64,000 nucleotides of DNA from Parcubacteria group bacterium Gr01-1014_8 (GCA_007376385.1 VMGC01000001.1:288001-352000); one strand, 5' to 3'. Shown: positions 5,455-25,970, counted from the stretch's first letter. Notes: generated from the sequence alone by a model not told the origin. Made by a program: numbers and translations.

Positions 5455-6581
5455 ACATTGTATACATCACAAGTGCGCGTATACCGTCAGAACGGGCCTA
5501 TGGCTATGCCATCACCAAACTCTGCGAAGAGTGGGGGAAGGCGGGGCATGATGTGAGGTTGATATTGCCGGAGAGGGAACATGGTCTGCAAGATGACCTG
5601 TTCGAATACTACAAACTCGAGAGGACATTCACCATAGAAAAGATTTCGGCAAGTGACTGGATTGGAAAAAGTCTGTCGACATCGCGCGTTCACTTTGCCC
5701 TCGATCTTCTTGCGTTCGTGATCTCGTTGCGAACAGTACGATTTGATGCGGACACAGCCATCTACACCCGTGAATATCTGCTTGCGCTCACACTTCCGGC
5801 ACGGAATCTTTTTTTGGAAGTGCACACGGTACACAGCAAAGGTTTTTTGTTTCGCCGTGCATTAGGACGGGTGCGCGGGATCGTTGCGATAAGTGAGGGC
5901 GTGAAAAAGGAACTGGTCGCTCTTGGTGTCGCAGAAGAAAAAATTAAGGTTGCTCATGACGGGGTCGATCTGGATCCATTTGCACAGGCTCCGGCGGACA
6001 GAAGCGTCTGGAGGCAGTTTGGTGTCGAGCCGTCACAAAATGTTGTGTTATACGCCGGTCATTTTTACGAGTGGAAAGGAGCCGATACCTTGGCGGTCGC
6101 TGGAAAAATGCTCCCATCTGATGTGCACACGGTCCTAGTAGGAGGTGTAGATAACGAGCTGCGCGACTTTAGAGAGAAATATGCCGCTTCAAATGTGCAC
6201 ATCGCGCCGCATCGATCACGCGCAACGATACCTGTCTTACTGAAAAGCGCGGATGTGCTCGTTCTTCCGAACAGCGCAAAGGCGGAAATCTCGCGCTCAC
6301 ACGCCTCGCCGCTGAAGCTGTTCGAATACATGGCCGCGGGCGTCGCAATTGTTGCGTCCGATGTGCCTAGTCTGCGTGAAGTACTTTCTGAGGATACAGC
6401 TTTTTTCTTTAAGGCCGATGACTCGAATAGTCTCGCGGAGGTTATCGGCCGCGTGCTCAAATTGCCGGACGACGCACATTCCAGAGCTGAACAGGCAAAG
6501 AAAAAGGCGGACACATACACATGGCGTGGTCGCGCTGCCGACATCGCACAATTTCTCGACAGACTGGGGAGCAAGGGATAG
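5451..6581 (+). CDS. glycosyltransferase family 4 (GT-B)
   Basis: 376 aa. C-terminal E-x7-E type motif (ASPLKLFEYMAAGVAIVASDVPSLREVL) typical of GT4/GT1 retaining transferases. Confidence 0.8.
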   Translation: MNIVYITSARIPSERAYGYAITKLCEEWGKAGHDVRLILPEREHGLQDDLFEYYKLERTFTIEKISASDWIGKSLSTSRVHFALDLLAFVISLRTVRFDADTAIYTREYLLALTLPARNLFLEVHTVHSKGFLFRRALGRVRGIVAISEGVKKELVALGVAEEKIKVAHDGVDLDPFAQAPADRSVWRQFGVEPSQNVVLYAGHFYEWKGADTLAVAGKMLPSDVHTVLVGGVDNELRDFREKYAASNVHIAPHRSRATIPVLLKSADVLVLPNSAKAEISRSHASPLKLFEYMAAGVAIVASDVPSLREVLSEDTAFFFKADDSNSLAEVIGRVLKLPDDAHSRAEQAKKKADTYTWRGRAADIAQFLDRLGSKG

Positions 6582-6591
6582 CATAGACTTT

Positions 6592-8403
6592 ATGCGGTTT
6601 TTTAGGCGCCTCGGGAATATGTTCCGCCTGCTTCGGCGGGCATATGGTGCATATTCGACGCAAATAGCGGCGCTTGCTGCCCTGGGCTTTTTGGGCGGAT
6701 TGCTTGAAGGCATCGGCATCAATGCGGTTGTCCCGCTTCTGACATTCATTTTTACGGAGTCCGCGCAGGCGTTTGACCCGATCTCGAATATTCTGCGGTC
6801 AGTGTTCACATTCATCGGCATTGATTTCGCCCCCAAATATTTGCTCGCGTTCATCGTGATCATGTTCCTTGCGCGCGCTGCGGTGATGTACGCGCTCTCG
6901 TATATTCAGACGGTCATATCATTCAACTATGAGCGAGATACGCGAGTACGCGTGTTCGAAACCCTCCTGCGTTCTTCGTGGTCGCATCATCTGGCAAGGA
7001 AATTCGGACATCTGGAGACTATCATCATGATAGACGCTCCGGCGAGCACGAATCTTCTCCGCAAGTTGAGCAATCTCATCACGCTCGCGACGGGGCTCAT
7101 AATGTATCTCATTGTGGCGTTCAATATTTCTCCTGCCGTTACATTTCTGACGTTCGCCGTCGGTGTATGCGGGCTCCTTTTCTTCAGATACTTTTTGACG
7201 ATGATTCACGCGAGAAGTTCGGAGCGTGTCGCGCTCAACAAAGAAGTCGCCCACTACATGGGGGAATACGCGGCGGGCGCGAAGGCGATAAAGGCATCCG
7301 GCACTGAGGAGGTTGTCGCGGAAAGCGGTGTGGATCTTTTTTCCCGTTTAAGGAATATTTCTGTAAGCATATCCCTTGTACAGCAGGTAGCCGTACTCAT
7401 TATTCCGCCGGCCGGGATTCTATATATCGCGCTCATATTCGGTGTTGCGTACCGTACTGATTTCATCCAGCTTGCCGCGCTTCCCGCTATTATTTACCTC
7501 ATTTACCGCATCTCGCTGTACGCTCAGCAAGGGCAGGACCACCTGCAGGGTATTCAGGAACTCGTCCCTCATTTGCAGAGCGTGCTCGCGTTCGAGGAGA
7601 AATCGCGACAGAAAGAAGAGCACATCGGCGGAGATAAATTATTCGCCTTCCACAAGGAACTTCGATTTGACGATGTTCATTTTTCCTACGACGACGGTCG
7701 CGAAGCGCTAAAAGGCGTGTCATTTACTGTTAAGGGGCGCTCAACGGTTGGTATTGTCGGTCCTTCCGGTGCAGGGAAGACGACATCGGTCGATTTGATG
7801 CTGAGGCTCTTGGAGCCGACGAACGGGGCGATCACACTCGATGGTGTAAATGTGCGCGATATTTCACTGCAATCATGGCGCGCAAAAACGGGGTATGTAC
7901 CACAAGAACCGTTCCTGTTGCACGATACGATACGGAACAACGTTCTTTTTCAATTTAAAGGAAACGGAGGACAAGACGCGCTTTCCGATGCAGATGTGTG
8001 GCACTTTCTCAAGATGGCGGATGCGGAAGATTTTGTTCGCGCGATGCCGGAGGGGCTCGATTCAATGGTCGGGGACAGAGGCGTAACACTTTCAGCAGGG
8101 CAGAGACAAAGGCTCGTCATTGCGCGTGAGCTTGCTCGAAAGCCGGAACTCCTCATTCTCGACGAGGCGACGAGCGCGCTCGATAGTGAATCAGAGGCGC
8201 GTTTGCAGAAGGTCATCCAGAAACTCAAGGGTTCGGTTACTATCGTCATTATTGCCCATCGTCTCTCGACTATCTTGGAGTCGGATAAGCTTGTTGTTCT
8301 AAAAGAAGGCACGGTAGCTGAGCCAATAGCCAGCCCTGAAGCGATGCTTCGTACCGCCGGCTCGTATTTAAGCCACATTTTCTCGCTGAATAAATCACTA
8401 TGA
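6592..8403 (+). CDS. ABC exporter, fused permease plus ATPase (MsbA/PglK-like; candidate lipid-linked glycan flippase)
   Basis: Track ORF 6349..8403 overlaps the GT4 gene, so it is trimmed to the ATG at 6592 (MRFFRRLGNMF...). Has an N-terminal 6-TM domain, Walker A GPSGAGKTT, signature LSAGQRQRLVIAREL, and Walker B LLILDEATSALD. Confidence 0.8.
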   Translation: MRFFRRLGNMFRLLRRAYGAYSTQIAALAALGFLGGLLEGIGINAVVPLLTFIFTESAQAFDPISNILRSVFTFIGIDFAPKYLLAFIVIMFLARAAVMYALSYIQTVISFNYERDTRVRVFETLLRSSWSHHLARKFGHLETIIMIDAPASTNLLRKLSNLITLATGLIMYLIVAFNISPAVTFLTFAVGVCGLLFFRYFLTMIHARSSERVALNKEVAHYMGEYAAGAKAIKASGTEEVVAESGVDLFSRLRNISVSISLVQQVAVLIIPPAGILYIALIFGVAYRTDFIQLAALPAIIYLIYRISLYAQQGQDHLQGIQELVPHLQSVLAFEEKSRQKEEHIGGDKLFAFHKELRFDDVHFSYDDGREALKGVSFTVKGRSTVGIVGPSGAGKTTSVDLMLRLLEPTNGAITLDGVNVRDISLQSWRAKTGYVPQEPFLLHDTIRNNVLFQFKGNGGQDALSDADVWHFLKMADAEDFVRAMPEGLDSMVGDRGVTLSAGQRQRLVIARELARKPELLILDEATSALDSESEARLQKVIQKLKGSVTIVIIAHRLSTILESDKLVVLKEGTVAEPIASPEAMLRTAGSYLSHIFSLNKSL

Positions 8404-10184: not shown

Positions 10185-11606
10185 ATGAGGATACTTGTCG
10201 TATATCCGAGGGCAGTGCCGGAGATAGAGATATTTTTTAATGACCTCAAACAAGCGGGGCACGAAATCGTCTATTGGGTCGGGGAACATAGCGGAGAGAA
10301 GAACACCCCTAAAGGCGCGATATTTCACGATCACTATGATGCGTGGGACGGCAAATCGGCTGAAGTATTCAAGAACGTCACATTCCCGCCCGCTTCTTCA
10401 GAGTTGGTAGAAAGATTGTACCGTACAGAGTCAGTTGTGCTTTCTATGATGGATAAGCATTACGATTCGGCGCCCGTGAATGAGCGAAAGCATATCTATT
10501 ATTCGATGTTGTCCTACTGGTCGGGAGTGTTGGATATGCTCAAGCCCGATGCGGTCGTCTTCGCTATAGTTCCTCACACGGTATACAACTACATTCTTTA
10601 TGAGCTCGCGCGTCTGCGCGGCCTTTTTACGCCGTGCTTTGAAGATACGTATGTTGCGTCACGCCTTTTATTTTATAAGAATTTCTGGGAAGGAAGTGAG
10701 GAACTACGTGATGCGCTCGGGCGTGCGTCCGATGCGAAGCTATCCGACTTGTCCGGAGATTTAGCGGCATATTTGAAACGATTTAAAGAGACCGAGGCAC
10801 AGCCGGCGTATATGGCCCAGCAAAAAAGACTGGGCGCGGGTTGGGGGCTCTTTCGCCACAGAGTCAGGATAGCGCGCGCTGGTCTGCTTTCCGGGAGGAC
10901 GTTCGTACTCGCGTGGAGATTTTTCAAGCGGTTGTTTGTCAGAAATCTTGCACACGAATATAGAGGAGTCGTGTCTGCGCCGGACATGTCACGGCCATAT
11001 GTATATTTTCCTCTCAATATGCAGCCCGAGCGCTCAACCTCGCCGCAGGGCGGTGTTTTTCAGGATCAGATCCTCGTTGCGGAAACAGTTGCCGCATCGT
11101 TGCCTGATGGCTGGATGCTTGTGATAAAAGAACATCCTTCGCAGTGGTGGTTGCGTGGGAAAACGCGTTACTCGAGCGCACGCTACCGCGGCTATTATCA
11201 GCGTCTTGCGCGTATACCGAACACGGTTCTCGTAGATACATTCACCAACACGTTCGAGTTGACGCGCGGTGCGCGGGCTGTCGCCGTCGTAACCGGAACT
11301 CCGGGGTGGGAAGCGATTCTGCGCAGTATTCCCGTGATCGTGTTCGGATACCCGTGGTATCGGGATTGCCCCGGAACTCTGCGAGTAGAAAATGTGGATG
11401 AGTGCAGGGTAGCGCTTGCGAGAATCGAGTCCGGGGGTCTAAAGCTGACTACTGACGGCGTGATTGCTTTTTTGAAAGCGCTTGACGCTGTGTCAGTACG
11501 TGCTTTTATTCACGATCTGATCGGGCAGACCGAACATATGAGTGAAGCGGAATCCTTTCGAAATATTGCTCTGAAGCTGAACACAGAACTCCGCGCGAAT
11601 ACATAA
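10185..11606 (+). CDS. putative capsule-synthesis (KpsC/KpsS/LpsZ, PF05159-like) CMP-ulosonic-acid glycosyltransferase; paralog of 25971-27467
   Basis: 473 aa. C-terminal motif AVAVVTGTPGWEAILRSIPVIVFGYPWY is shared with the paralog (VTVISGTPGWEAALLKKPVITFGHVFY). It resembles the G(F/W)EAL...KPV..G...Y motif of Kdo-transferase-like capsule synthesis proteins, but family assignment is from memory only. Confidence 0.4.
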   Translation: MRILVVYPRAVPEIEIFFNDLKQAGHEIVYWVGEHSGEKNTPKGAIFHDHYDAWDGKSAEVFKNVTFPPASSELVERLYRTESVVLSMMDKHYDSAPVNERKHIYYSMLSYWSGVLDMLKPDAVVFAIVPHTVYNYILYELARLRGLFTPCFEDTYVASRLLFYKNFWEGSEELRDALGRASDAKLSDLSGDLAAYLKRFKETEAQPAYMAQQKRLGAGWGLFRHRVRIARAGLLSGRTFVLAWRFFKRLFVRNLAHEYRGVVSAPDMSRPYVYFPLNMQPERSTSPQGGVFQDQILVAETVAASLPDGWMLVIKEHPSQWWLRGKTRYSSARYRGYYQRLARIPNTVLVDTFTNTFELTRGARAVAVVTGTPGWEAILRSIPVIVFGYPWYRDCPGTLRVENVDECRVALARIESGGLKLTTDGVIAFLKALDAVSVRAFIHDLIGQTEHMSEAESFRNIALKLNTELRANT

Positions 11607-12858: not shown

Positions 12859-13632
12859 ATGTATCGTAAGAATTCGTATGCACTTACAGAGAGCGTAGCG
12901 TTCATTACAGGTGCTCTCGGCCAGATCGGACGGGAGATAGTCATGCGATTCTTGGAAGACGGCGCGTTTGTCTATATCGCCGACAAAGGGAAAAAGATCA
13001 GTGACGATCTCGCAAAAAAACTGAAGCGCGCGAAATTTGATAACTACCGGTACGTCACGATTGACGTGACGAGCGAGGAGTCGATACGAGCCGTGTATAG
13101 GAAACTGACGCGTCCCGTTGATGTACTTGTCAATTGTGCCGGCATTGGCGTATATACGTCGTTTGAGTCGCGAACTTCCGACGAACTCGATACCGTGTAC
13201 GCGGTAAACCTTAAGGGCACTATCCTGTGCTCCAAGATATTTTCAGCAGGCATGATGAAGAGGAAAGGGGGTCGGATCATCAATATCGGTTCTATATACG
13301 GGATTACAACGCCGGATTTTTCAATGTACGGCGATTCCGGTAGGAATTCTTCTGAGATCTACGGCGCGACGAAAGCCGGCATTATCCAGACGACGAAATA
13401 TCTTGCGGCATACCTTGCGCCGCACAATATTCTGGTGAACTGCGTAAGTCCAGGCGGCGTCTTTAATCGCCAGAAATCCTTTTTCGTCAGACGATATAAA
13501 AAGAGGACGCCGCTTCAGCGAATGGCGGCGCCAGACGATCTTACGGGTGTTATCGCGTTTCTCGCTTCGGATGAGGCGGCGTATATCACGGGACAGAATA
13601 TCGCGGTCGACGGAGGCTTTACGATATGGTGA
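12859..13632 (+). CDS. short-chain dehydrogenase/reductase (SDR; PtmA/FabG-like)
   Basis: 257 aa. TGALGQIGREI Rossmann motif, NCAGIG, and the catalytic YGATKAGI (Y-x3-K). Confidence 0.8.
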   Translation: MYRKNSYALTESVAFITGALGQIGREIVMRFLEDGAFVYIADKGKKISDDLAKKLKRAKFDNYRYVTIDVTSEESIRAVYRKLTRPVDVLVNCAGIGVYTSFESRTSDELDTVYAVNLKGTILCSKIFSAGMMKRKGGRIINIGSIYGITTPDFSMYGDSGRNSSEIYGATKAGIIQTTKYLAAYLAPHNILVNCVSPGGVFNRQKSFFVRRYKKRTPLQRMAAPDDLTGVIAFLASDEAAYITGQNIAVDGGFTIW

Positions 13633-16028
13633 AGAAAGCCCGTAAAAAAGTATATGTGCTTGGAGCGGGAATGAGCGGGCTTGCGACCGCACTTCGGCTT
13701 GCAGAGCTCGGCGTCGATACAACCCTCGTTGAAAAAGAAAAGAAGGTCGGCGGACTCGCGGGAAGTTTCAAATGGCGCGATTTCAAGAATCTTGATTACG
13801 GACCGCATATCTACCACACACCCGACAAGAAACTGGAAGAGATATGGAAGAAGGAGTACGGCGATCTGTTCCATCAAAATGAGTTCTGGGGAAAGAACGT
13901 TAAAGGTGAGAAGTTCGACCGGTATTTTGACTACCCACTGTCATTCGAATCACTAAAAAAATTTCCTTCTGACGTGAGAAAAAAGATCATGCATGAACTG
14001 TCTCATCTCGACGAGACAAAGCTCGCAAAGGCGAAAAGTTATGCCGATTACGTACGGGAACTCGTCGGTCCCACGCTGATGGAGTATTTTTTTATCCGTT
14101 ACCCTCAAAAATTATGGGGGGTTTCCATAGATAAGATGACGGCAAACTGGGCCCCCAAGCGTGTTACATTCAGGACGAAAGACGAACATTTTCATGCAGG
14201 TCAATGGAGCGCGGTCGGGAAATACGGGTCAGGCAGGATACTGGAGAGAATGGCCGATAGATTCAAAAAAAAAGGTGGCACACTTATGCTCGGGAGTCCC
14301 GTCATGGCGATCGAGCACTCAAACGGCATCATCAAGAACATCGTACTTGACGAAAAGAAAATCAGACTTTCGTCCGACGATGCGGTTGTTTCGACGATAC
14401 CGATACCTGTCATGGCCGAGTATCTTGGCGTTAGAAATACCTTGAAATATCGTGGAGCGAAAATTGTATTTGTCGCGCTCAACAAGGAAGAGGCAATCCC
14501 CGACAAGTTCAATTTTCTTTACTACGATGCACCGGAAATAATTTTTCATCGGGTGAGTGAGCAGAAGAAATTCTGCGCGCTTGGGTTTCCAAAGAACAAA
14601 ACTGTGCTTTCGTGTGAGATCGCATACACAAAAGGGGACACGCTGGATACAACCGACGAGAAAGAGATACTGGATCGAGCTGTGAGCAGTCTCATACGTG
14701 TCGGGCTCGCCAAAAAAAATGAGGTTGAGGATGCGATGATGGTCTCCCTTCCGTACGTGTACCCTCTCTTGGTTCGCGGAAGCGAACACGAACTCGTTGA
14801 TGTGCGCGGACGTCTCGGCGCATTCAAGCAGCTCTATTGCATCGGCACCGGGGGCGATTTCCGGTACGATGACCTGCAGATACTCAATTTACGAGGGTTT
14901 GATCTCGCTGAGCGGCTTGCGTCACCTGAACTGGACGAAGATGCGGGAGAAGCTGTCAAAAAAGATTTTACGACCGGCTTTAACAACACGTTCGCGCTCG
15001 GCCGCCATACAGTTTCTGAATCCGCGCCCGCGTTCATCATTGCCGAGATCGGGCTCAACCATAACGGGAGCATGAAGCTCGCTATGGAGCTTATCGATAG
15101 GGCGGTTGAGTGCGGTTGTTCGGCCGTGAAGTTTCAGACGTACAGCGCGGGGAACAGAGTGTCGAAGGAAGTGAAGGGCAATCGATACGCCGAGAAGCTT
15201 GTAGATATGGAAGAAACAACATTCGATATGCTCAAGCGTCTGGAATTCACTACGAAAGATCACGTGCGCCTGTTTGCGTACGCCAAGCAAAAAGGAATCG
15301 AGATCTTTTCAACACCGTTCGACTTTGAAAGCGTCGATCTTCTGGAATCCCTCGGGTGCGACTTCTATAAGATTTCGTCGATGGATCTTGTGAATCTGCC
15401 GTTGATACAAAAAGTCGCAAGGACAGGGAAGCCGATGATCGTTTCGACGGGAATGTCAACGCTCGGTCAGGTCGAGGATGCCGTCAATACCATCCGGGAA
15501 ACCGGCAATAAAAATCTTGTCCTCCTGCACTGCGTCTCAATGTATCCCGCGGCGGCACAGGACGTAAACATGGCAGTTATGGGAACTCTACGGCGGGCAT
15601 TCGGAACGCCAGTCGGTTTTTCCGATCACACTATCGGTCTTTCGGCCGCGACTGTTGCGCTCGCACTCGGCGCACGTGTCATCGAACGGCACTTTACTCT
15701 CGATAGATTTATGGAGGGGCCCGATCACATTCTGTCGTCTGACCCGGATGAAATGAGAGAGCTTGTGCGTCTCAGTCATCTTATTCCCGTCATCATGGGA
15801 AAGCCAGAGAAAGTAATTCTTCCGAGCGAAACGGAAACCGTCAATAGGTTCAAGAAATGTCTGTACGCACGGAAAGACATACGTCGGGGCCAGAAAATAA
15901 CAATGGATGCGCTTGCCATAAAGGGTCCGGGAGGAGGGATATTGCCGAAATATGCCAACGTTATTGTCGGGAGGACGGCTCGAAACAGTATCAAGAGGGA
16001 TCACCCCATCCAGTGGGGCGATGTATGA
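13626..16028 (+). CDS. fusion protein: N-terminal FAD-dependent oxidoreductase (UDP-galactopyranose-mutase/amine-oxidase-like) plus C-terminal NeuB-family nonulosonic-acid synthase with SAF domain
   Basis: 800 aa. N-terminus VYVLGAGMSGLATALRLAELGVDTTLVEKEKKVGGLAGSF dinucleotide-binding motif and DYGPHIYHT (compare Glf KYGAHIFHT). From about aa 455, PAFIIAEIGLNHNGSMKLAMELIDRAVECGCSAVKFQTY plus a C-terminal SAF-like tail form the NeuB/PseI/LegI signature. Confidence 0.7.
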   Translation: MVKKARKKVYVLGAGMSGLATALRLAELGVDTTLVEKEKKVGGLAGSFKWRDFKNLDYGPHIYHTPDKKLEEIWKKEYGDLFHQNEFWGKNVKGEKFDRYFDYPLSFESLKKFPSDVRKKIMHELSHLDETKLAKAKSYADYVRELVGPTLMEYFFIRYPQKLWGVSIDKMTANWAPKRVTFRTKDEHFHAGQWSAVGKYGSGRILERMADRFKKKGGTLMLGSPVMAIEHSNGIIKNIVLDEKKIRLSSDDAVVSTIPIPVMAEYLGVRNTLKYRGAKIVFVALNKEEAIPDKFNFLYYDAPEIIFHRVSEQKKFCALGFPKNKTVLSCEIAYTKGDTLDTTDEKEILDRAVSSLIRVGLAKKNEVEDAMMVSLPYVYPLLVRGSEHELVDVRGRLGAFKQLYCIGTGGDFRYDDLQILNLRGFDLAERLASPELDEDAGEAVKKDFTTGFNNTFALGRHTVSESAPAFIIAEIGLNHNGSMKLAMELIDRAVECGCSAVKFQTYSAGNRVSKEVKGNRYAEKLVDMEETTFDMLKRLEFTTKDHVRLFAYAKQKGIEIFSTPFDFESVDLLESLGCDFYKISSMDLVNLPLIQKVARTGKPMIVSTGMSTLGQVEDAVNTIRETGNKNLVLLHCVSMYPAAAQDVNMAVMGTLRRAFGTPVGFSDHTIGLSAATVALALGARVIERHFTLDRFMEGPDHILSSDPDEMRELVRLSHLIPVIMGKPEKVILPSETETVNRFKKCLYARKDIRRGQKITMDALAIKGPGGGILPKYANVIVGRTARNSIKRDHPIQWGDV

Positions 16029-17065
16029 AGAGTCCCGTCATAGAGAATATTTTACGAAAGATACGCGCCGGTTCCAAACGCCGCGCGACAGGCTTTGTCA
16101 TCGGAAACACCTCCGGAGTTTTCAAACAAGGCCGATTGTATCCGATTCCTATCCGGGAGACGGGTACACTCATTTACGGCGGTGTGATCGTTCGTGATGT
16201 CGCTACCGCCGGAGCTGTCGCGCGCATGATAGACGGCAAGACGGACTACGTATTTGTTGATGCGGAAAAGAAGATCGAGACAATGTATCATGGTAAAAAC
16301 GATGTCGGCAACATCGAGCGGATGGTTCGCGGCGTCATATTGAAATCGAAGATAATTACCTACAAAGGCAACGACCTGACAAAAGACGCAATCGACTTTC
16401 TTCTCGGTCAGCTTATCGTTGATATTGGCGGAACGACTGTCGCCGTGATCGGATGCGGGAATCTCGGTGCAAAAATAGCGCTTAAATTGGTGGAGCGAGG
16501 AGCTCATGTCCGTGCGTACCGGAGGGACAAAGGGAAGCTGCGGAAAATTGTGACGGGTCTCAATCAGATAAAATCAGAACACACGCTTTCGTCCATCTGG
16601 GCGGCGCGGAGTATAGCGGATGCGTGTAAAGGTGCGAGCGCAGTTATCGCAACAGCAGACAGCCAGGGCATTATCAAACACGATCATTTGAAATTCATGA
16701 ATATCGCCCGCCCGCCCATCCTGATCGATGCGGGAAAAGGCTGTTTTTCGGATGATGTAGTGAGAAGTGATGCATACGCCATATACCGTGCCGATGTGTC
16801 CATCGCGCAAAAGCATATTTTTTCGGCGCTTCTTGAGACGAAATTACACTATGGGCGATCGATAGGACGGCGCGTGCTCGAGGATGGCAATGTGGGCCTC
16901 GTGTCGCTCGGGCTCCTTGGAAAAAAAGGGGAGGTCATCGTGGATGATATTGATTCCCCGCGGCGCATTATCGGTGTCGCTGACGGGAGGGGCAAGTTGA
17001 TGAAGAATGTCGGGAGTCAGAAGAAAGTTGTTGAGAAAATACGGCGCATGTTTAATGCATCATAA
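16025..17065 (+). CDS. NAD(P)-binding Rossmann-fold protein (putative dehydrogenase; family unclear)
   Basis: Track ORF 15857..17065 trimmed to the ATG at 16025 (ATGA overlap with the upstream stop). Contains a TVAVIGCGNLGAKIALKL dinucleotide-binding motif. Confidence 0.4.
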   Translation: MKSPVIENILRKIRAGSKRRATGFVIGNTSGVFKQGRLYPIPIRETGTLIYGGVIVRDVATAGAVARMIDGKTDYVFVDAEKKIETMYHGKNDVGNIERMVRGVILKSKIITYKGNDLTKDAIDFLLGQLIVDIGGTTVAVIGCGNLGAKIALKLVERGAHVRAYRRDKGKLRKIVTGLNQIKSEHTLSSIWAARSIADACKGASAVIATADSQGIIKHDHLKFMNIARPPILIDAGKGCFSDDVVRSDAYAIYRADVSIAQKHIFSALLETKLHYGRSIGRRVLEDGNVGLVSLGLLGKKGEVIVDDIDSPRRIIGVADGRGKLMKNVGSQKKVVEKIRRMFNAS

Positions 17066-17070
17066 TTTCT

Positions 17071-17835
17071 ATGTCTCGGCACCCTCGCGTTATCGCAATC
17101 ATTCAGGCACGCATGTCCTCAACACGCATGCCGGGCAAAGTGCTGCTTGACCTTTTACCCGGCGTATCAGTCGTGGAATACATGCTTCGGCGTGTTTCAG
17201 CAAGTACAGAAGTCGATACGAGCATTGTTGCGACCACTGATAATCCAAGGGATGCCGTGCTGGTCGAGAACATGAAGGCGATAGGGCAGTCTTTCTTTGT
17301 AGGCAGTGAAGGGGATGTGCTAGACCGATACTACAATGCAGCAAAAAAATACGGAGCCAAGGCAGGAGACATGATAGTGCGCTTAACCTCTGATTGTCCA
17401 GTCATCGATCCCAAAGAAATCGATGCGACGGTCAGATTTTATCGTCAACATGATTTTGACTACGCCTCAAACAATCTTGAGCCATACTCATTCCCTGACG
17501 GCATGGATACTGAAGTATTTTCTTTCGAGGCCCTGGAAAAGGCGTGGAACGATGCGACCAGTCAGTCGCATCGCGAGCACGTCACTTTTTATTTCTGGAA
17601 AAATCCGCAGATCTTCAAGATAGGACAGTATGTGAATCCCAAACGAAATCAGGACGAGTATCGGCTTACACTCGATTACCCATCTGACTACGTGTTACTG
17701 AAAAAAGTTGCGGAATATTTCTCGCCGCGCATGGATTACTCCATGCAGGAAATCATTGATTTTCTGGATTCTCATCTTGACGTGAAGGCTCTGAATGCGG
17801 ATGTTGCGCGCAATGTGCACTTCAAGACGGCATGA
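17071..17835 (+). CDS. acylneuraminate cytidylyltransferase-like (candidate CMP-pseudaminic acid synthetase, PseF-like)
   Basis: 254 aa. VIAIIQARMSSTRMPGKVLLDL... is paralogous to 8400-9128. Lies upstream of the pseB/pseC/pseI-like genes. Confidence 0.65.
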   Translation: MSRHPRVIAIIQARMSSTRMPGKVLLDLLPGVSVVEYMLRRVSASTEVDTSIVATTDNPRDAVLVENMKAIGQSFFVGSEGDVLDRYYNAAKKYGAKAGDMIVRLTSDCPVIDPKEIDATVRFYRQHDFDYASNNLEPYSFPDGMDTEVFSFEALEKAWNDATSQSHREHVTFYFWKNPQIFKIGQYVNPKRNQDEYRLTLDYPSDYVLLKKVAEYFSPRMDYSMQEIIDFLDSHLDVKALNADVARNVHFKTA

Positions 17836-17874: not shown

Positions 17875-19221
17875 ATGACGATGAAAAAGACTCCGGCTGA
17901 CAGATTGCAGGGGAAGGGGCAGAAGCTCTGGAAGAAGGCCAAGACGCTCATACCTGGCGGGAACCAACTTCTTTCCAAGCGGGCGGAGATGTTTCTGCCG
18001 GATAACTGGCCCGCGTACTATTCGAAAGCGAGCGGTCCGTACGTTTGGGATCTCGATGGCCGCCGGTACATGGATGTCGGCAGTATGGCCGTCGGTAGCT
18101 GCCTTCTCGGCTATGCTGACAAAGATGTGAATAAGGCAGTGAAAGAAGCAGTTGATCGCGGTTCGATGTCCACTCTGAACGCACCCGAAGAAGTTGAGCT
18201 GGCGGAACTGCTCTGCAAGATCCATCCGTGGGCGGACATGGTGCGCTACGCGAGAGGGGGAGGCGAGAGCATGGCAATAGCTGAGCGTATCGCGCGCGCT
18301 TACACAGGACGCGACATTATTCTGTTCTGCGGATATCACGGCTGGTCGGACTGGTATCTGGCCGCGAATCTCTCATCGGATAAGGCGCTCGACGGGCACT
18401 TATTGCCGGGACTCGAGCCACGCGGCGTTCCGCGGGGGCTTGCGGGCACAATAGTACCGTTCCACTATAACAACATTGATGAGCTCGAAGCTCTTGCAAA
18501 GAAATACGGAAAGAAAGTAGCCGCAATCGTTATGGAGCCCGTGCGCAGCGAACCGCCGGAAAATAATTTTCTAAAGAAAGTGCGAAGGATGGCCGACAGG
18601 CTCGGTGCCGTTCTTGTATTCGACGAGATATCCATCGGGTGGAAACTGACATACGGAGGGGCGCATCTCCTGTATGGAGTCAACCCCGACATTGCGGTAT
18701 TCAGCAAGGCGATGAGTAATGGTTTTCCTATGGCGGCAGTGATTGGCCGAAGGGAAGTGATGCAGGCGGCGCAAAGCTCGTTCATCTCAAGTACCTATTG
18801 GACCGACAGAACAGGCCCAAGTGCGGCGCTCGCGACGCTGAAGAAAATGAAACGAGTAAATGTCACACAGCATATCAGCCGCATAGCGCGTATCACGCGT
18901 GCCGGGTGGGTGCGCCTGGCAAAGAAGCACGGACTTTCTATCGCCATCGGGTGGTCCCTGCCGTACAGTTCGTTCACGTTTACTGACCAGAAAGATACTC
19001 TTGCCCTCAAGACGCTTTTTAATCAGGAGATGCTGCGGCGTGGTTTTCTCGCTACAACGGCGTTCACTCCGTCAGCGACACATACACCGCAACACATTCG
19101 GCAGTATCTAAAAGCGGTGGACGAAGTTTTCGGCATACTTGCGGACGCGCTCAAAAAGGGGGACGTGAAGAAGCGTCTCCAAGGCCCTCCGGTCCATTCG
19201 CATTTTCAGCGTCTGAACTGA
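17875..19221 (+). CDS. class-III PLP aminotransferase (glutamate-1-semialdehyde aminomutase-like)
   Basis: 448 aa. HGWSDWYLAANL..., VFDEISIGWKLTYGG and AVFSKAMSNGFPMAAVIG (PLP-Lys region) resemble HemL-like class III transaminases. The context is glycan biosynthesis, not haem. Confidence 0.65.
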   Translation: MTMKKTPADRLQGKGQKLWKKAKTLIPGGNQLLSKRAEMFLPDNWPAYYSKASGPYVWDLDGRRYMDVGSMAVGSCLLGYADKDVNKAVKEAVDRGSMSTLNAPEEVELAELLCKIHPWADMVRYARGGGESMAIAERIARAYTGRDIILFCGYHGWSDWYLAANLSSDKALDGHLLPGLEPRGVPRGLAGTIVPFHYNNIDELEALAKKYGKKVAAIVMEPVRSEPPENNFLKKVRRMADRLGAVLVFDEISIGWKLTYGGAHLLYGVNPDIAVFSKAMSNGFPMAAVIGRREVMQAAQSSFISSTYWTDRTGPSAALATLKKMKRVNVTQHISRIARITRAGWVRLAKKHGLSIAIGWSLPYSSFTFTDQKDTLALKTLFNQEMLRRGFLATTAFTPSATHTPQHIRQYLKAVDEVFGILADALKKGDVKKRLQGPPVHSHFQRLN

Positions 19222-19303
19222 TAGCGTGCGTTGTTTTTTCGGTGTCGACTCCCAACTTGTTTTCGTTGACCCGCCGGCGAAGAGGCGTTACAGTGGGGCG
19301 CTC

Positions 19304-20287
19304 ATGTCTGCAAGCTATCTCCGCGGCAAGACAATTCTCATAACTGGCGGGACCGGTACGTTCGGGCGTGCAATGGTACAGCACCTGCTTGCGATGCCCA
19401 AGGTAAAGCGTGTCATTGTGTTCAGCCGGGACGAGTATAAGCAGAGTGTCATGGAGAGTGAATTTCATGACCCTCGTCTCCATTTTTTTATAGGTGATGT
19501 ACGCGACCGTAACCGGCTCGAGCGTGCGTTTAATCATGTAGATGTTGTTATACATGCGGCCGCTCTCAAACAGGTTCCTGCTCTCGAATACAATCCATCG
19601 GAGGCGATTGAGACCAATATAATCGGGACTCGCAATGTGATAGATGCCGCGCATGAGCGTAACGTAGAGCGAGTTTTGATCATTTCGTCTGACAAAGCGG
19701 TCCAGCCGATAAACCTCTACGGCGCCACAAAATTGTGCGCCGAACGTCTGGCGGTTGCCGCAAATTCCTATCGCGGGAAGCATGGCAAGACGCGCATCAG
19801 TGTTGTTCGATACGGCAATGTTATCGGAAGCCGCGGTTCTCTGGTTGAGATCATCGGAAAGCAGCGTCAAAGCGGTACATTGATGCTGACCGACGAGGGG
19901 ATGACTCGTTTCTGGCTGCATATCGATGAGATCATGAAGCTCGTAACGAACATTATCGGTTTGATGCAGGGTGGCGAGATATTCATTCCAAAGATGTCCA
20001 GTCTTCGTATAGAAGATGTCATGCGTGAGCTTGCACCTGAGTGCATCATAAAGATAGTCGGTATGCGGCCCGGTGAAAAAATGCATGAGACGTTGATGAC
20101 GGAGCATGAGGCGCCACGCGCGAAAGATCTCGGCAATATGTATGTCATTGTGCCGGAATTCCACCCGTGGACCGCAAAAAAAATGTATGCAAACAAAAAG
20201 TCGTTTCCAAAAGATCTGGTATATGTCAGCAATCATCCGAAATATCTTCTTTCACGTTCCCACGTAAAGAAAGTGCTAAAGGTATGA
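19304..20287 (+). CDS. pseB: UDP-N-acetylglucosamine 4,6-dehydratase (inverting), PseB/FlaA1/CapD-like
   Basis: Track ORF trimmed to the ATG at 19304 (MSASYLRGKTILITGGTGTFGRAMV...). Short CapD-type extended SDR with YGATKLCAE catalytic motif, immediately followed by a PseC-like transaminase. Confidence 0.75.
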   Translation: MSASYLRGKTILITGGTGTFGRAMVQHLLAMPKVKRVIVFSRDEYKQSVMESEFHDPRLHFFIGDVRDRNRLERAFNHVDVVIHAAALKQVPALEYNPSEAIETNIIGTRNVIDAAHERNVERVLIISSDKAVQPINLYGATKLCAERLAVAANSYRGKHGKTRISVVRYGNVIGSRGSLVEIIGKQRQSGTLMLTDEGMTRFWLHIDEIMKLVTNIIGLMQGGEIFIPKMSSLRIEDVMRELAPECIIKIVGMRPGEKMHETLMTEHEAPRAKDLGNMYVIVPEFHPWTAKKMYANKKSFPKDLVYVSNHPKYLLSRSHVKKVLKV

Positions 20288-21423
20288 AATTGCCGTACTC
20301 GCGGCAAACAATCGGCGAGGATGATATCCGTGAGGTCATACGGACGCTAAAATCTCCTTTTATCACACAGGGGCCAAAGATAGCGGAATTCGAGAAGGCA
20401 TTAGCGCGTTTTTGTCGTGCAAAGTATGCTGTTGTTTTTTCGAGCGGTACTGCAGCGCTTCATAGTGCGTACGCGGCGGCCGGTATTGGGGAAGGAGACG
20501 AGGTTATCATGCCGGCGCTTACCTTTGCCGCGACGGCAAATGCCGCGCTGTATCTCGGAGCCACGCCTGTGTTCGTAGATATTGATAAGTCCACGGCGAA
20601 TATGGATATGCGGGATGCTAAAAAAAAGATAACAAAGCACACGAAAGCTATCGTACCCGTCGATTACGCGGGGCTGCCAGCCGACCTTACAGTATGTCGC
20701 GCGCTTGCAAAAAAGCATAAACTCATTCTTATTGAGGACGGAGCACAGAGCCTCGGAGCCATATACAAAGGGAAGCCGGTTGGCACACAGGCTGACATGA
20801 CCATGTTCAGTTTCCATCCCGTGAAGACCATCACGACGGGAGAAGGTGGCGCTGTCGTAACGAACAGCAAAAAATTCTACGATTACTTGTTAATGTATCG
20901 CACGCACGGCATGACGAAGGATCCTAGGAAGTTAACAGATACAACGAAGGCCGCATGGCATCAAGAAATGCACATGCTCGGGAATAATTATCGGATGACC
21001 GATATTCAGGCGGCACTCGGAGTGAGTCAGATGAAAAAAATACGAACATTTCTTGCGAAACGACATGCGGCCGCCCGCCGGTACTTTTCTCTGCTTAAAC
21101 ATATTGAGGGACTCACGCTGCCTCCGCGCTCTTCGCTCGCGTCGTCCGCATGGCACCTTTTTGTGGTGCGCGTCGATAAAACTGTGCGTGACATGGTATT
21201 CGAAACACTTCGGGCAAAGGGGATAGGTGTACAGGTCCACTACCTGCCCGTCTATACGCATCCGTATTACAAGTCTCTGGGATATCGTGGAACGCAATGC
21301 CCGACGACGGAAGAATTCTCAGCTTCGGCGCTGTCTATTCCGCTTTTTCCGAATATTACATATCGTGAGCAGTCATATGTCGCGACTGAACTCGAGAAGG
21401 CGCTCAGGAAAGCTCGGTTTTAA
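20284..21423 (+). CDS. pseC: UDP-4-amino-4,6-dideoxy-N-acetyl-beta-L-altrosamine transaminase-like (DegT family)
   Basis: Trimmed to the ATG at 20284 (MKLPYSRQTIGEDDIREVIRTLKSPFITQGPKIAEFEKAL, compare the PseC N-terminus). PLP lysine in FSFHPVKTITTGEGG. ATGA overlap with pseB. Confidence 0.75.
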   Translation: MKLPYSRQTIGEDDIREVIRTLKSPFITQGPKIAEFEKALARFCRAKYAVVFSSGTAALHSAYAAAGIGEGDEVIMPALTFAATANAALYLGATPVFVDIDKSTANMDMRDAKKKITKHTKAIVPVDYAGLPADLTVCRALAKKHKLILIEDGAQSLGAIYKGKPVGTQADMTMFSFHPVKTITTGEGGAVVTNSKKFYDYLLMYRTHGMTKDPRKLTDTTKAAWHQEMHMLGNNYRMTDIQAALGVSQMKKIRTFLAKRHAAARRYFSLLKHIEGLTLPPRSSLASSAWHLFVVRVDKTVRDMVFETLRAKGIGVQVHYLPVYTHPYYKSLGYRGTQCPTTEEFSASALSIPLFPNITYREQSYVATELEKALRKARF

Positions 21424-21479
21424 TTACTCATGGGAGCGGGCTATAGTGGGGTGATAATGTGTGGAAGGGACACAATCGT

Positions 21480-22391: not shown

Positions 22392-22396
22392 GTGAG

Positions 22397-22849
22397 ATGC
22401 GATATCGGCGTGCCACAATGGGCGATAGCGCACAGCTTTTCATATGGCGCAACGACCCTGTAACCCGGGAAAATTCGCGGAACGGGAAGCTGCTCGAATT
22501 TACAGAACATACTCAATGGCTGGAAACGGCATTGCAGAATTCGGATCGTCAGATATACATCGCGGAATTTGAAAACGAGCAGATTGGTGTTGTTCGCACT
22601 GATCGGATTGGCGACGTATTGGAACTATCGTGGACAGTAGTACCCGAGTGTCGCGGAAAGGGGTTGGGAAAAAAGATGGTCGTCGGCTTCGTGATGGAAG
22701 TTCTCGGCAGTCCGTCGAAATTACGTGCCTCAATACGCAAAGGAAACATCGCGTCGGAGAAAATTGCGCTAGCGCTCGGCCTGCGCTCTGTTCGGGAAGA
22801 ATCTGGCGCTGATGGACCGCCGATGGTCGTCTGGGAGACCCGAATATGA
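22397..22849 (+). CDS. GNAT-family N-acetyltransferase (PseH-like)
   Basis: About 150 aa. The acetyl-CoA binding segment VVPECRGKGLGKKMV has the R/Q-x-x-G-x-G/A motif. Located between the pseC-like and pseI-like genes. Confidence 0.55.
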   Translation: MRYRRATMGDSAQLFIWRNDPVTRENSRNGKLLEFTEHTQWLETALQNSDRQIYIAEFENEQIGVVRTDRIGDVLELSWTVVPECRGKGLGKKMVVGFVMEVLGSPSKLRASIRKGNIASEKIALALGLRSVREESGADGPPMVVWETRI

Positions 22850-23565: not shown

Positions 23566-23591
23566 AAGGAAGCCGTGATAGCATCGCCATA

Positions 23592-25963: not shown

Positions 25964-25970
25964 TGTTTGT

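What the first reader, a model, noticed from the sequence alone, without database searches (positions are those of the whole stretch)
13626..16028. Unusual fusion: UGM-like flavoprotein plus NeuB synthase in one 800-aa polypeptide
The N-terminal about 440 aa carry a Rossmann FAD/NAD motif (VLGAGMSGLATALRLA...VEKEKKVGGLAGSF) and a DYGPHIYHT motif matching the UDP-galactopyranose mutase KYGAHIFHT segment. The C-terminal about 350 aa are a complete NeuB/SAF nonulosonic acid synthase. I do not know of a characterised NeuB fused to a flavoenzyme. The fusion implies metabolic channeling: either a flavin-dependent step that generates or modifies the hexosamine substrate, or oxidation/ring-contraction chemistry on the nonulosonic product.
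Basis: partly seen in the sequence, partly recalled or inferred. Interest (0 to 1): 0.6.

Follow-up and report, generated by a model that had tools for sequence, protein, structure and literature searches.

The report
Conserved mutase-like flavoprotein fused to NeuB
One 800-residue protein really does join a flavoenzyme domain of the sugar-ring-mutase (UGM) type to a sialic-acid-type synthase; the same uncharacterised fusion recurs across many bacterial phyla and probably marks an undescribed route to a surface acidic sugar.

Summary
Window 13626-16028 (+) is one uninterrupted 800-codon ORF: a FAD/UGM-like domain (aa 1-436), a roughly 33-37-residue linker, and a NeuB TIM barrel plus SAF domain (aa about 468-800).

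It is not an assembly or frameshift artefact. More than 100 protein clusters and 57 non-redundant genomic loci carry the same roughly 795-815-aa fusion. They come from CPR lineages, Nitrospirota, Elusimicrobia, Acidobacteriota, Omnitrophota, Planctomycetes, several proteobacterial classes, SAR11, SAR116 and two archaeal MAGs.

The N-half matches UDP-galactopyranose mutases over its full length. It keeps 7 of the 9 T. cruzi UGM active-site residues. The C-half keeps every NeuB metal, PEP and catalytic residue I checked, but NmNeuB Arg314 is Gly in 57/57 fusions.

The fusion sits in a conserved module:
- an unannotated roughly 350-aa NAD(P)-binding partner (51/57 loci);
- a CTP_transf_3 cytidylyltransferase (49/57);
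- often an SDR and an ABC exporter.

No NeuC/WecB-type gene occurs in any locus.

My best reading (confidence about 0.4) is that the flavin domain takes the place of the missing NDP-sugar "unmasking" step and feeds the NeuB domain. This is inferred, not shown. Nine literature searches found no description of this architecture. I rate it a new variant of known kinds.

The parts
13626..16028 (+). Whole fusion gene, 800 aa plus stop
   Evidence: Single ORF. Identical protein P0001 is in public databases and more than 120 full-length homologue clusters exist. AF2 model: mean pLDDT 88.5, pTM 0.83.
13626..14933 (+). N-terminal UGM-like FAD domain (aa 1-436)
   Evidence: Pfam NAD_binding_8, Amino_oxidase and GLF. 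Profile against PDB: UGMs are best, E 4e-23. Foldseek: UGM TM(target) 0.70-0.84.
13662..13679 (+). Dinucleotide-binding G13-x-G15-x-x-G18
   Evidence: Invariant or nearly invariant in 62 fusions. E36 and G43 are also invariant.
13794..13820 (+). 'Histidine loop' D57-Y-G-P-H61-I-Y-H-T65
   Evidence: Aligns with KpUGM YGPHIFHT and TcUGM His62. H61 is present in 62/62.
14148..14162 (+). W175-A-P-K-R179, at the mobile-flap Arg position
   Evidence: R179 aligns with TcUGM Arg176 and KpUGM R174. It is invariant. The AF2 pLDDT dips here.
14544..14570 (+). F307-H-R309-V-S-E312-Q-K314-K
   Evidence: R309 aligns with TcUGM Arg327 and KpUGM R280. Present in 62/62.
14865..14873 (+). Y414-D-D416
   Evidence: Aligns with TcUGM Tyr429/Asn433 and KpUGM Y349/D351. 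Invariant.
14934..15026 (+). Inter-domain linker (aa 437 to about 467; aa 437-449 predicted disordered)
   Evidence: pLDDT below 50 for aa 437-449. The stretch between aa 432 and 468 is 33-37 residues long across the family.
15027..15824 (+). NeuB TIM-barrel domain (aa about 468-733)
   Evidence: Pfam NeuB 7.6e-90. NmNeuB and PseI are the best structural matches, TM(target) 0.87-0.91. E474, K502, Q504, H668, E687, H689 and D700 correspond to NmNeuB E25, K53, Q55, H215, E234, H236 and D247, and are conserved in 56-57 of 57 fusions (E25 is 56/57, with one alignment gap; the others 57/57).
15858..16025 (+). SAF (antifreeze-like) domain (aa 745-800)
   Evidence: Pfam SAF 8.2e-9.
15921..15938 (+). 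K766-G767-P-G-G-G771; G767 replaces NmNeuB Arg314
   Evidence: Gly in 57/57 fusions. The companion NeuB paralogues keep R or K.
16025..17065 (+). Conserved partner: unannotated NAD(P)-binding protein, 346 aa, translationally coupled (ATGA overlap)
   Evidence: Present in 51/57 loci, within 1.5 kb in 50. Its hits share contigs with the fusion hits. AF2 pLDDT 94. No close PDB fold.
17071..17835 (+). CTP_transf_3 cytidylyltransferase, 254 aa
   Evidence: Pfam 1.4e-27. Some CTP_transf_3 gene is present in 49/57 loci, usually at +2.
12859..13632 (+). SDR oxidoreductase, 257 aa; its stop overlaps the fusion's start
   Evidence: Pfam adh_short_C2 5.8e-47. Homologue present in 32-33 of 57 loci.
17875..19221 (+). 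Class-III (GSA-aminomutase-like) aminotransferase; accessory
   Evidence: Pfam Aminotran_3. Homologue present in 18/57 loci.
6349..8403 (+). ABC exporter with fused membrane and ATPase domains (true start probably later than 6349); accessory
   Evidence: Pfam ABC_tran and ABC_membrane. An ABC exporter cluster is in 26/57 loci and lies directly upstream of the fusion in L003-L006.

Best explanation
The gene encodes a genuine bifunctional enzyme. It is the signature of a conserved, uncharacterised pathway to a CMP-activated 3-deoxy-2-ulosonic (sialic-acid-like) sugar for a surface glycan.

Proposed mechanism:
1. The N-terminal domain is a UGM-type flavoenzyme. With reduced FAD it binds a common nucleotide sugar, and flavin N5 attacks C1 and expels the nucleotide. 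The sugar ring opens as a flavin iminium, as in UGM.
2. Instead of, or besides, re-closing to a furanose nucleotide, the adduct is hydrolysed. This replaces the NeuC/LegG/PseG-type step that normally liberates the free aldose.
3. The open-chain aldose is handed to the fused NeuB domain, which condenses it with phosphoenolpyruvate in a metal-dependent reaction to give the ulosonic acid.
4. The adjacent NAD(P)-binding partner and the SDR tailor the product. The CTP_transf_3 enzyme makes the CMP-sugar. Glycosyltransferases and the ABC exporter use it.

Shown here: the fusion is real and ancient. Both domains keep their catalytic residues. The module is conserved. NeuC-type genes are absent from the loci.

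Inferred: the identity of the nucleotide sugar, hydrolytic release, hand-off between domains, the order of the later steps and the structure of the product.
For: Real and conserved fusion:
- More than 120 full-length clusters and 57 loci in more than a dozen phyla.
- The divergence of the two halves is correlated (r = 0.89) and the linker length is constant.
- A rare split form has the two genes 15 nt apart.
- Close relatives of the N-half (over 35% identity) are essentially never free-standing.

UGM-type N-domain:
- Full-length profile match to UGMs, E 4e-23.
- H61, R179, Y299, R309, Y379 and Y414 are invariant, and residue 195 is N or S. These align with TcUGM His62, Arg176, Tyr317, Arg327, Tyr395, Tyr429 and Asn201 (residue roles from PMC4192007).
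- Fold match to UGMs.

Competent NeuB domain: all metal, PEP and catalytic residues are conserved in 56-57 of 57 fusions (E25 is 56/57; the rest 57/57).

Module: partner in 51/57 loci, CTP_transf_3 in 49/57, with translational coupling in the window.

Missing step:
- No Epimerase_2 or GT28 family among the recurrent neighbour families.
- No WecB/NeuC-like sequence in 1.05 Mb of loci or in the 64-kb window.
- The accessory NDP-sugar genes are heterogeneous, so the core probably starts from a housekeeping nucleotide sugar.

Other points:
- pTM 0.83 for a two-domain chain suggests a defined inter-domain arrangement.
- Arg314 to Gly in 57/57 fusions indicates a sugar-binding mode unlike that of NmNeuB.
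Against: - No UGM homologue is known to release a free sugar hydrolytically.
[quoted passage not shown] That fits a true mutase just as well.
- Absence of NeuC was tested only within about 10 kb of the fusion, and with one reference sequence plus a Pfam top-25 summary. PseG-type hydrolases were tested only by the Pfam summary. One locus (L003) has a NUDIX gene that could do the job.
- I had no model coordinates, so I could not check the distance between the two active sites or look for a tunnel.
- No biochemical data exist for any member.
Confidence: 0.4

Rival explanations
1. The N-domain is a true nucleotide-sugar pyranose/furanose mutase. It supplies a furanose sugar (for example Galf or a 6-deoxy-hexofuranose) to the same glycan that receives the ulosonic acid. 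The two activities are not consecutive, and the fusion only ensures co-inheritance and co-expression.
For: The UGM catalytic set is nearly complete, including the residues that retain the nucleotide for re-attachment. UGM homologues are common in glycan loci. The loci are typical mixed-sugar glycan loci.
Against: This N-domain subfamily is essentially never free-standing, and when split it sits next to NeuB. The fusion has persisted from CPR bacteria to SAR11 and archaeal MAGs with correlated divergence. It is always linked to the same partner gene. It does not explain where the NeuB substrate comes from without a NeuC/PseG-type gene.
Confidence: 0.2
2. The flavin domain acts after the synthase. 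It contracts the ring of the CMP-activated ulosonic acid (pyranose to furanose), giving a furanosidic ulosonic acid for the glycan.
For: A cytidylyltransferase is almost always in the module. Arg314 to Gly is compatible with a 5-hydroxy (Kdn/Kdo-like) product, which could form a furanose. Furanosidic Kdo is known in some capsules (from my own knowledge, not checked here).
Against: UGM chemistry at a quaternary, carboxylate-bearing anomeric carbon has no precedent. The conserved Arg/Tyr set matches diphosphate binding in UGM, whereas CMP-sugars carry a monophosphate. The two fused activities would then be steps 1 and 3 of the pathway.
Confidence: 0.15
3. The N-domain is a redox flavoenzyme (amine oxidase, desaturase or PPO-like). 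It oxidises the sugar substrate or product, for example an alcohol or amine to an aldehyde or ketone.
For: Pfam Amino_oxidase gives the best E-value for this half (1e-16). Protoporphyrinogen oxidases are nearly as close in fold (TM(target) about 0.74). An aldehyde-generating oxidase feeding an aldolase-type synthase would make chemical sense.
Against: Matches to CrtI, HemY and LSD1 cover only the first roughly 60 dinucleotide-binding residues. The residues that are invariant are the UGM-specific substrate and phosphate ligands. The profile E-values strongly favour UGM (4e-23, against 5e-9 for PPO).
Confidence: 0.1
4. Artefact: two adjacent genes joined by a sequencing or assembly error, or a decaying pseudogene.
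For: None, beyond the fact that the window comes from a metagenome-assembled genome.
Against: The same uninterrupted architecture is found in independent assemblies from many environments and phyla. Catalytic residues are invariant in both halves. The AF2 model is confident.
Confidence: 0.01

Closest known systems
UDP-galactopyranose mutase (Glf/UGM; PF03275; e.g. K. pneumoniae 3GF4, T. cruzi 4DSG)
   Same: Same three-part fold. Full-length profile match. Same FAD-binding motifs, histidine loop (GPH), flap Arg, second Arg and three Tyr of the active site (PMC4192007).
   Different: About 17-18% identity. Far below the NCBIfam UGM equivalog cut-off (60 against 304 bits). TcUGM Arg423 is Thr. 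There are family-specific invariants (N91, P177-K178, Q193-W194, Q418, D426). It is fused to a NeuB synthase. Substrate and reaction outcome are unknown.
Free-standing PRK07208-type 'FAD-dependent oxidoreductase' clade (NCBIfam NF005547 and relatives; uncharacterised)
   Same: Best NCBIfam match of the N-half (175 bits). It is the sister clade in the 1.84-billion-representative search. It keeps the same UGM-type residues.
   Different: Identity is 30% or less. The score is below the family cut-off of 380. Members are 420-480 aa without NeuB, and some are fused to GtrA instead. Their genomic contexts differ. At position 416 they have N rather than D.
NeuB / LegI / PseI nonulosonic acid synthases (N. 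meningitidis NeuB 1XUZ; C. jejuni PseI 8H2C)
   Same: TIM barrel plus SAF domain, 31-34% identity, TM(target) 0.87-0.91. All metal, PEP and catalytic residues are kept.
   Different: Below both equivalog cut-offs (NeuB 375 against 400; PseI 303 against 340). Arg314 is Gly, N184 is Ser, N74 is Glu and E134 is Asp in all or nearly all fusions. It carries a 450-aa N-terminal flavin domain. It co-exists with a bona fide PseI in the same window.
NeuC-NeuB-NeuA sialic acid pathway
   Same: The module has the same formal logic: nucleotide sugar, then free aldose, then PEP condensation, then CMP activation. A NeuB-type domain and a CTP_transf_3 enzyme lie side by side.
   Different: There is no NeuC/Epimerase_2 gene. 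A UGM-like flavin domain and an unknown NAD(P)-binding protein are present instead.
Other fused enzymes of ulosonic-acid pathways (animal GNE epimerase/kinase, from my own knowledge; NeuB+CTP_transf_3 fusions seen here)
   Same: Fusion of enzymes of one sialic-acid-type pathway. The 580-aa NeuB+CTP_transf_3 proteins occur in the same loci.
   Different: None of them involves a flavoenzyme.

Membership tests
UDP-galactopyranose mutase (UGM/Glf) | FAD-binding Rossmann motif (GxGxxG, acidic residue at the end of beta-2) | tested here: met
   G13, G15, G18 and E36 are invariant or nearly invariant. Pfam NAD_binding_8 2e-13.
UDP-galactopyranose mutase (UGM/Glf) | Pfam GLF domain above the gathering score | tested here: met
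   33.5 bits against 26.3, aa 155-338.
UDP-galactopyranose mutase (UGM/Glf) | NCBIfam equivalog TIGR00031 cut-off | tested here: not met
   60.1 bits against 303.75. It is therefore not an orthologue of characterised UGMs.
UDP-galactopyranose mutase (UGM/Glf) | Active-site set (TcUGM His62, Arg176, Asn201, Tyr317, Arg327, Tyr395, Arg423, Tyr429, Asn433) | tested here: met
   Seven of nine are kept: H61, R179, N/S195, Y299, R309, Y379, Y414. Asn433 is Asp, as in KpUGM D351. Arg423 is Thr. The residue list comes from PMC4192007.
UDP-galactopyranose mutase (UGM/Glf) | UGM fold | tested here: met
   Foldseek E about 1e-22, TM(target) 0.70-0.84 to UGMs. Protoporphyrinogen oxidases are nearly as close (0.74), so the fold alone does not discriminate.
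UDP-galactopyranose mutase (UGM/Glf) | Pyranose/furanose interconversion of a nucleotide sugar by reduced flavin | not testable with these tools
   Needs an enzyme assay.
NeuB-type nonulosonic acid synthase | NeuB TIM barrel plus C-terminal SAF domain | tested here: met
   Pfam NeuB 7.6e-90 and SAF 8.2e-9. Structural match to 1XUU and 8H2C.
NeuB-type nonulosonic acid synthase | Metal ligands and PEP/catalytic residues (NmNeuB E25, K53, Q55, T110, K129, S132, S154, Y186, S213, H215, E234, H236, D247) | tested here: met
   Conserved in 56-57 of 57 fusions.
NeuB-type nonulosonic acid synthase | SAF-domain Arg314 that contacts the substrate in NmNeuB | tested here: not met
   Gly in 57/57 fusions. 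Companion NeuB paralogues have R or K. The role of R314 is from my own knowledge; the 4IPI entry title confirms that R314 mutants were studied.
NeuB-type nonulosonic acid synthase | Equivalog-level assignment to NeuB/LegI (TIGR03569) or PseI (TIGR03586) | tested here: not met
   375.2 against 399.65, and 302.8 against 340.25. The window's other NeuB passes the PseI cut-off (475 bits).
Amine-oxidase / PPO / phytoene-desaturase flavoenzymes (PF01593) | Pfam Amino_oxidase above the gathering score | tested here: met
   61.7 bits against 19.8. This is a superfamily-level model that also covers UGM-like proteins.
Amine-oxidase / PPO / phytoene-desaturase flavoenzymes (PF01593) | Full-length similarity to a characterised redox member | tested here: not met
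   CrtI, HpnE, HemY and LSD1 matches are limited to the first roughly 60 residues. The PPO match is partial, E 5e-9, against 4e-23 for UGM.
PRK07208-type FAD oxidoreductases (NF005547) | NCBIfam cut-off | tested here: not met
   174.9 against 380. It is a sister clade, not a member.
Canonical NeuC-NeuB-NeuA sialic acid locus | Hydrolysing UDP-GlcNAc 2-epimerase (Epimerase_2) next to the synthase | tested here: not met
   No WecB/NeuC-like sequence in 57 loci (1.05 Mb) or in the window. The family is not among the recurrent neighbour families.
Canonical NeuC-NeuB-NeuA sialic acid locus | CMP-sugar synthetase (CTP_transf_3) next to the synthase | tested here: met
   Window 17071-17835. Present in 49/57 loci. 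There is no equivalog-level assignment, only weak KdsB-type hits.

The most novel reading that the evidence does not exclude
Covalent flavin-N5 (UGM-type) catalysis is used here not to make a furanose but to strip the nucleotide from a sugar nucleotide. The ring-opened aldose passes directly into a fused aldolase-type synthase. This would be a NeuC-independent, flavin-dependent route to a previously undescribed ulosonic acid. That sugar would be finished by a dehydrogenase family of unknown fold and would decorate the surface of SAR11, CPR bacteria and many other uncultured lineages.
Probability: 0.3. Interest if true: 0.8.

Novelty: new variant of a known kind. Interest (0 to 1): 0.62.

Why it matters
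Ulosonic acids (sialic, legionaminic, pseudaminic, Kdo) shape how cells are seen by phages, predators and hosts. All known routes obtain the free aldose through NeuC/LegG/PseG-type enzymes.

A conserved module in which a mutase-type flavoenzyme is welded to the synthase, with no such enzyme nearby, points to a different entry into this chemistry and probably to a new sugar. It occurs in SAR11 and SAR116, among the most abundant marine bacteria, and in genome-reduced CPR bacteria, whose surface chemistry is almost unknown.

It would also extend the small set of non-redox, N5-covalent flavoenzymes. It gives a first functional handle on the large free-standing PRK07208-type clade (1,268 representatives at E below 1e-30) and on the roughly 350-aa partner family.

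Tried and rejected
- **Frameshift or assembly artefact:** rejected by the comparative data.
- **Clade-restricted oddity:** rejected. The fusion is in more than a dozen phyla.
- **Redox amine oxidase or PPO as the primary reading:** downgraded. Similarity to redox members is confined to the dinucleotide-binding region, and the invariant residues are UGM-specific.
- **A dedicated locus-encoded NDP-sugar precursor route (dTDP-6-deoxyhexose or GDP-heptose):** considered because RmlA/B-like, GHMP-kinase and NTP-transferase genes are frequent. Rejected as a general explanation because these genes are heterogeneous and none is near-universal.
- **The fusion as the locus's Pse/Leg/Neu synthase:** rejected for the window, which has its own PseI next to a PseC that passes its cut-off and PseB- and PseH-like genes that fall below theirs.
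- **Viral carriage:** none found.
- **Rfam on the window:** nothing.
- **Literature:** nine searches found no paper on the architecture, on nonulosonic acids in CPR or SAR11, or on PRK07208.
- **Failed runs:** one look-up failed because P0104 was not on record, and one MAFFT run timed out and was repeated.
- **Not possible:** inspecting model coordinates to measure the distance between active sites.


Full report

Yes. Window 13626-16028 (+) is one ORF of 800 codons with no internal stop. Its ATG lies 10 nt downstream of a GGAGG and overlaps the stop codon of the upstream SDR gene. The next gene starts at 16025 in an ATGA overlap with the fusion's stop. The genes are therefore translationally coupled.

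Pfam gives the following for the protein:
- NAD_binding_8, aa 11-75;
- Amino_oxidase, aa 16-356, E 1e-16;
- GLF, aa 155-338, 33.5 bits against a gathering score of 26.3;
- NeuB, aa 489-727, E 7.6e-90;
- SAF, aa 745-800.

The identical protein is on record from a 407,897-bp contig of 'Parcubacteria group bacterium Gr01-1014_8'.

**2. Is it an artefact or a one-off?**

No. The 5.8-billion-protein search returned at least 120 clusters of the same full-length (about 795-806 aa) architecture, down to 46% identity.

A scan of 185,579 species-representative genomes with a profile of the N-half gave 64 loci. Together with loci fetched by exact-protein look-up, 57 non-redundant loci carry an uninterrupted fused ORF of 791-850 aa. 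The only exceptions are three broken ORFs in fragmentary MAGs.

The hosts are:
- CPR lineages (Kaiserbacteria, Paceibacteria and others);
- Nitrospiraceae, 'Magnetomicrobium' and Nitrospina;
- Anaerolineales, Elusimicrobia, Latescibacterota, Terriglobia, Omnitrophota, Planctomycetales and WOR-3;
- Gamma-, Zeta- and Deltaproteobacteria;
- many Pelagibacterales (SAR11, including a complete chromosome, CP136340.1) and SAR116;
- two archaeal MAGs (Nitrososphaerales and Methanosarcinales).

Several observations point to one ancient fusion kept as a unit:
- Divergence of the two halves from the window protein is correlated (r = 0.89), and the linker length is constant at 33-37 residues.
- In the exhaustive search of 1.84 billion representatives, the top-scoring relatives of the N-half (above 300 bits) are fused proteins or fragments. 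Free-standing 420-480-aa proteins begin only around 270 bits.
- One rare split form has the flavoprotein gene and a NeuB gene 15 nt apart.

**3. What is the N-terminal half?**

By single-sequence search, its only solved relatives beyond the dinucleotide-binding region are UDP-galactopyranose mutases. A profile of 15 fusion N-halves matches T. cruzi UGM over positions 5-429 with E 4e-23. K. pneumoniae UGM follows at 1e-21. Protoporphyrinogen oxidase reaches only 5e-9.

Counting residues in the printed alignments, and taking the active-site list from PMC4192007, gives this mapping from TcUGM to the window protein:

| TcUGM residue | Window residue |
|---|---|
| His62 | H61 |
| Arg176 | R179 |
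| Asn201 | S195 |
| Tyr317 | Y299 |
| Arg327 | R309 |
| Tyr395 | Y379 |
| Tyr429 | Y414 |
| Asn433 | D416 |
| Arg423 | T408 |

- Across 62 fusions, H61, R179, Y299, R309, Y379, Y414 and D416 are present in 62/62. Position 195 is N or S.
- The K. pneumoniae uridine and phosphate ligands Y155 and W160 also align with invariant Y159 and W164.
- The AlphaFold model (pLDDT 88.5, pTM 0.83) has its only internal soft spot in this half at aa 171-190, which is the position of the UGM mobile flap.
- Foldseek puts UGMs at TM(target) 0.70-0.84, with protoporphyrinogen oxidases nearly as close. It is therefore the sequence constellation, not the fold, that identifies the domain as UGM-type.

It is not an orthologue of known UGMs (60 bits against an equivalog cut-off of 304). 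It is a branch of a large uncharacterised clade, for which NCBIfam PRK07208 models are the best match at 175 bits against a cut-off of 380. In that clade, 184 free-standing members keep the same residues.

**4. What is the C-terminal half?**

It is a complete NeuB TIM barrel plus SAF domain, 31-34% identical to N. meningitidis NeuB and C. jejuni PseI, with TM(target) 0.87-0.91. All residues that I mapped from NmNeuB are conserved in 56-57 of the 57 fusions: E25, K53, Q55, T110, K129, S132, S154, Y186, S213, H215, E234, H236 and D247.

The striking difference is Arg314 of the SAF domain, which is Gly in 57/57 fusions (motif K-G-P-G-G-G). The companion NeuB paralogues in the same loci keep Arg or Lys. 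The protein falls just below the NeuB/LegI equivalog cut-off and well below the PseI cut-off.

**5. Context**

The window from 1 to about 30 kb is one surface-glycan locus. It contains:
- RmlA-like, RmlB and DegT genes, methyltransferases, a GT4 glycosyltransferase and an ABC exporter;
- a first CTP_transf_3, a GFO/IDH/MocA oxidoreductase, a KpsC/S-type (PF05159) protein and a NanM-like O-methyltransferase;
- then SDR, the fusion, the NAD(P)-binding partner, a second CTP_transf_3 and a class-III aminotransferase;
- then a pseudaminic-acid gene set: PseC and PseI pass their equivalog cut-offs, while the PseB-like (395.9 against 407.75 bits) and PseH-like (42.6 against 93.1) genes fall below theirs.

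The fusion is therefore an additional synthase, not the locus's Pse synthase.

Across the 57 loci:
- the roughly 350-aa NAD(P)-binding protein is present in 51, and within 1.5 kb of the fusion in 50;
- a CTP_transf_3 gene of some kind is present in 49, usually at +2, and in 14 loci it is part of a roughly 580-aa NeuB+CTP_transf_3 fusion;
- the SDR is present in 32-33;
- an ABC exporter is present in 19-26;
- the class-III aminotransferase is present in 18.

The partner is an unannotated family. Its database hits share contigs with the fusion's hits. It has no sequence relative in the PDB. Its confident model (pLDDT 94) matches known structures only through its Rossmann half.

**6. What is missing?**

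Known routes need an enzyme that liberates the free aldose from its nucleotide: NeuC/LegG of the Epimerase_2 family, or PseG. I ran three tests:
- Among representatives of 150 otherwise unclassified neighbour families, neither Epimerase_2 nor GT28 is recurrent.
- E. coli WecB as a query finds nothing in 1.05 Mb of the 57 loci (phmmer, nothing at E up to 10; tblastn, best E 1.2).
- WecB also finds nothing in the 64-kb window.

The accessory nucleotide-sugar genes are a mixed bag: RmlA to RmlD, GDP-fucose synthase, heptose epimerase, PseB and LegB. These are ordinary co-components of glycan loci, not a dedicated feeder pathway. The conserved core therefore looks self-contained. It is formally parallel to NeuC-NeuB-NeuA, with the UGM-like domain where NeuC would be.

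**7. Most likely mechanism (confidence about 0.4)**

The reduced flavin of the N-domain attacks C1 of a common nucleotide sugar. It expels the nucleotide and opens the ring as an iminium. These are the first steps of the UGM mechanism as described in PMC4192007. Hydrolysis of the adduct then releases the open-chain aldose to the fused NeuB domain, which condenses it with PEP. The partner and the SDR tailor the product. CTP_transf_3 activates it, and transferases and the ABC exporter use it.

Only the following are shown: the anatomy, the residue conservation, the gene linkage and the absence of NeuC-type genes. The hydrolytic outcome, the hand-off between domains, the substrate and the product are inferred.

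Against this model:
- Hydrolytic UGM chemistry has no precedent.
- The conserved phosphate-holding residues fit a true mutase equally well.
- Absence of NeuC/PseG-type genes was tested only locally.

Rivals:
- an independent true mutase supplying a furanose to the same glycan (0.2);
- ring contraction of the CMP-ulosonate (0.15);
- a redox role (0.1);
- artefact (about 0.01).

**8. Novelty**

Nine full-text searches found no paper on this architecture, on nonulosonic acids in CPR or SAR11, or on the PRK07208 clade. Database names are generic: 'N-acetylneuraminate synthase family protein', 'FAD-dependent oxidoreductase' and 'sialic acid synthase SpsE/protoporphyrinogen oxidase'.

Both domains belong to known families, so this is a new variant of known kinds. 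It has a real chance (about 0.3) of hiding a new reaction and a new sugar.

Noticed in passing
window 19226-24641: A second, stand-alone NeuB (23592-24641) passes the PseI equivalog cut-off (475 against 340 bits). It follows a PseB-like gene (395.9 bits, just below the 407.75 cut-off), PseC (459 against 423.5, passes), an aldo/keto reductase and a PseH-like GNAT (42.6 against 93.1, below cut-off). The 239-aa ORF 22846-23565, which has no family hit, sits where PseG would be expected. The locus thus encodes two different ulosonic-acid synthases.
   Followed up: partly
window 16025-17065: The roughly 350-aa NAD(P)-binding partner belongs to an unannotated family with 102 hits. It has a GxGNxG motif and invariant residues D79, E81, K83, K114 and N116 in a separate N-terminal domain. 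Its confident AF2 model has no close PDB match (TM 0.5 or less); only the Rossmann half resembles D-2-hydroxyacid dehydrogenases, OCD, DpaA and shikimate DH.
   Followed up: partly
L001 13472-15223; also L029, L030, L037, L038, L047, L052, L062: Proteins of about 580-600 aa that fuse a NeuB domain to a CTP_transf_3 cytidylyltransferase sit two genes downstream of the flavoprotein-NeuB fusion in 12 loci. Their NeuB domains differ from the canonical ones at several substrate positions (mostly T110 to D, N184 to Q, Y186 to F, R314 to K).
   Followed up: partly
window 10185-11606 and 25944-27467: Two proteins carry the PF05159 (Capsule_synth, KpsC/KpsS-type) domain. This family uses CMP-activated ulosonic acids, so they are candidate transferases for the products of the two synthases. 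Homologues occur in about 10 of the related loci.
   Followed up: no
proteins P0152, P0205, P0216 (cyanobacteria): Free-standing sister flavoproteins of the PRK07208-type clade are fused to a GtrA membrane domain (about 630 aa) in cyanobacteria. Another member (L074) overlaps a small GT2 gene. This hints at a role with lipid-linked or nucleotide sugars for the whole clade.
   Followed up: no
L071 384-2701: A rare split version: a 445-aa flavoprotein (37% identical to the window's N-half) is followed 15 nt later by a separate 321-aa NeuB gene on a 3-kb marine metagenome contig.
   Followed up: partly
protein P0359 (1141 aa): A representative with the N-domain at residues 2-436 in a 1141-aa protein. 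This is a longer architecture than the usual 800 aa.
   Followed up: no
L029 (Nitrososphaerales MAG) and L057 (Methanosarcinales MAG): The fusion is also found in contigs binned as archaea (42% and 35% identity in the N-half). This could reflect inter-domain transfer or mis-binning.
   Followed up: no
window 54000-64000: G+C rises from about 0.48 to about 0.55 and the GC skew changes sign at about 54 kb. Beyond that point there are only short ORFs, mostly on the minus strand. Rfam finds nothing in the whole window.
   Followed up: partly
window 5451-8403: The listed ABC-exporter ORF (6349-8403, TTG start) overlaps the preceding GT4 gene (5451-6581) by about 230 nt. Its true start is probably further downstream.
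   Followed up: no
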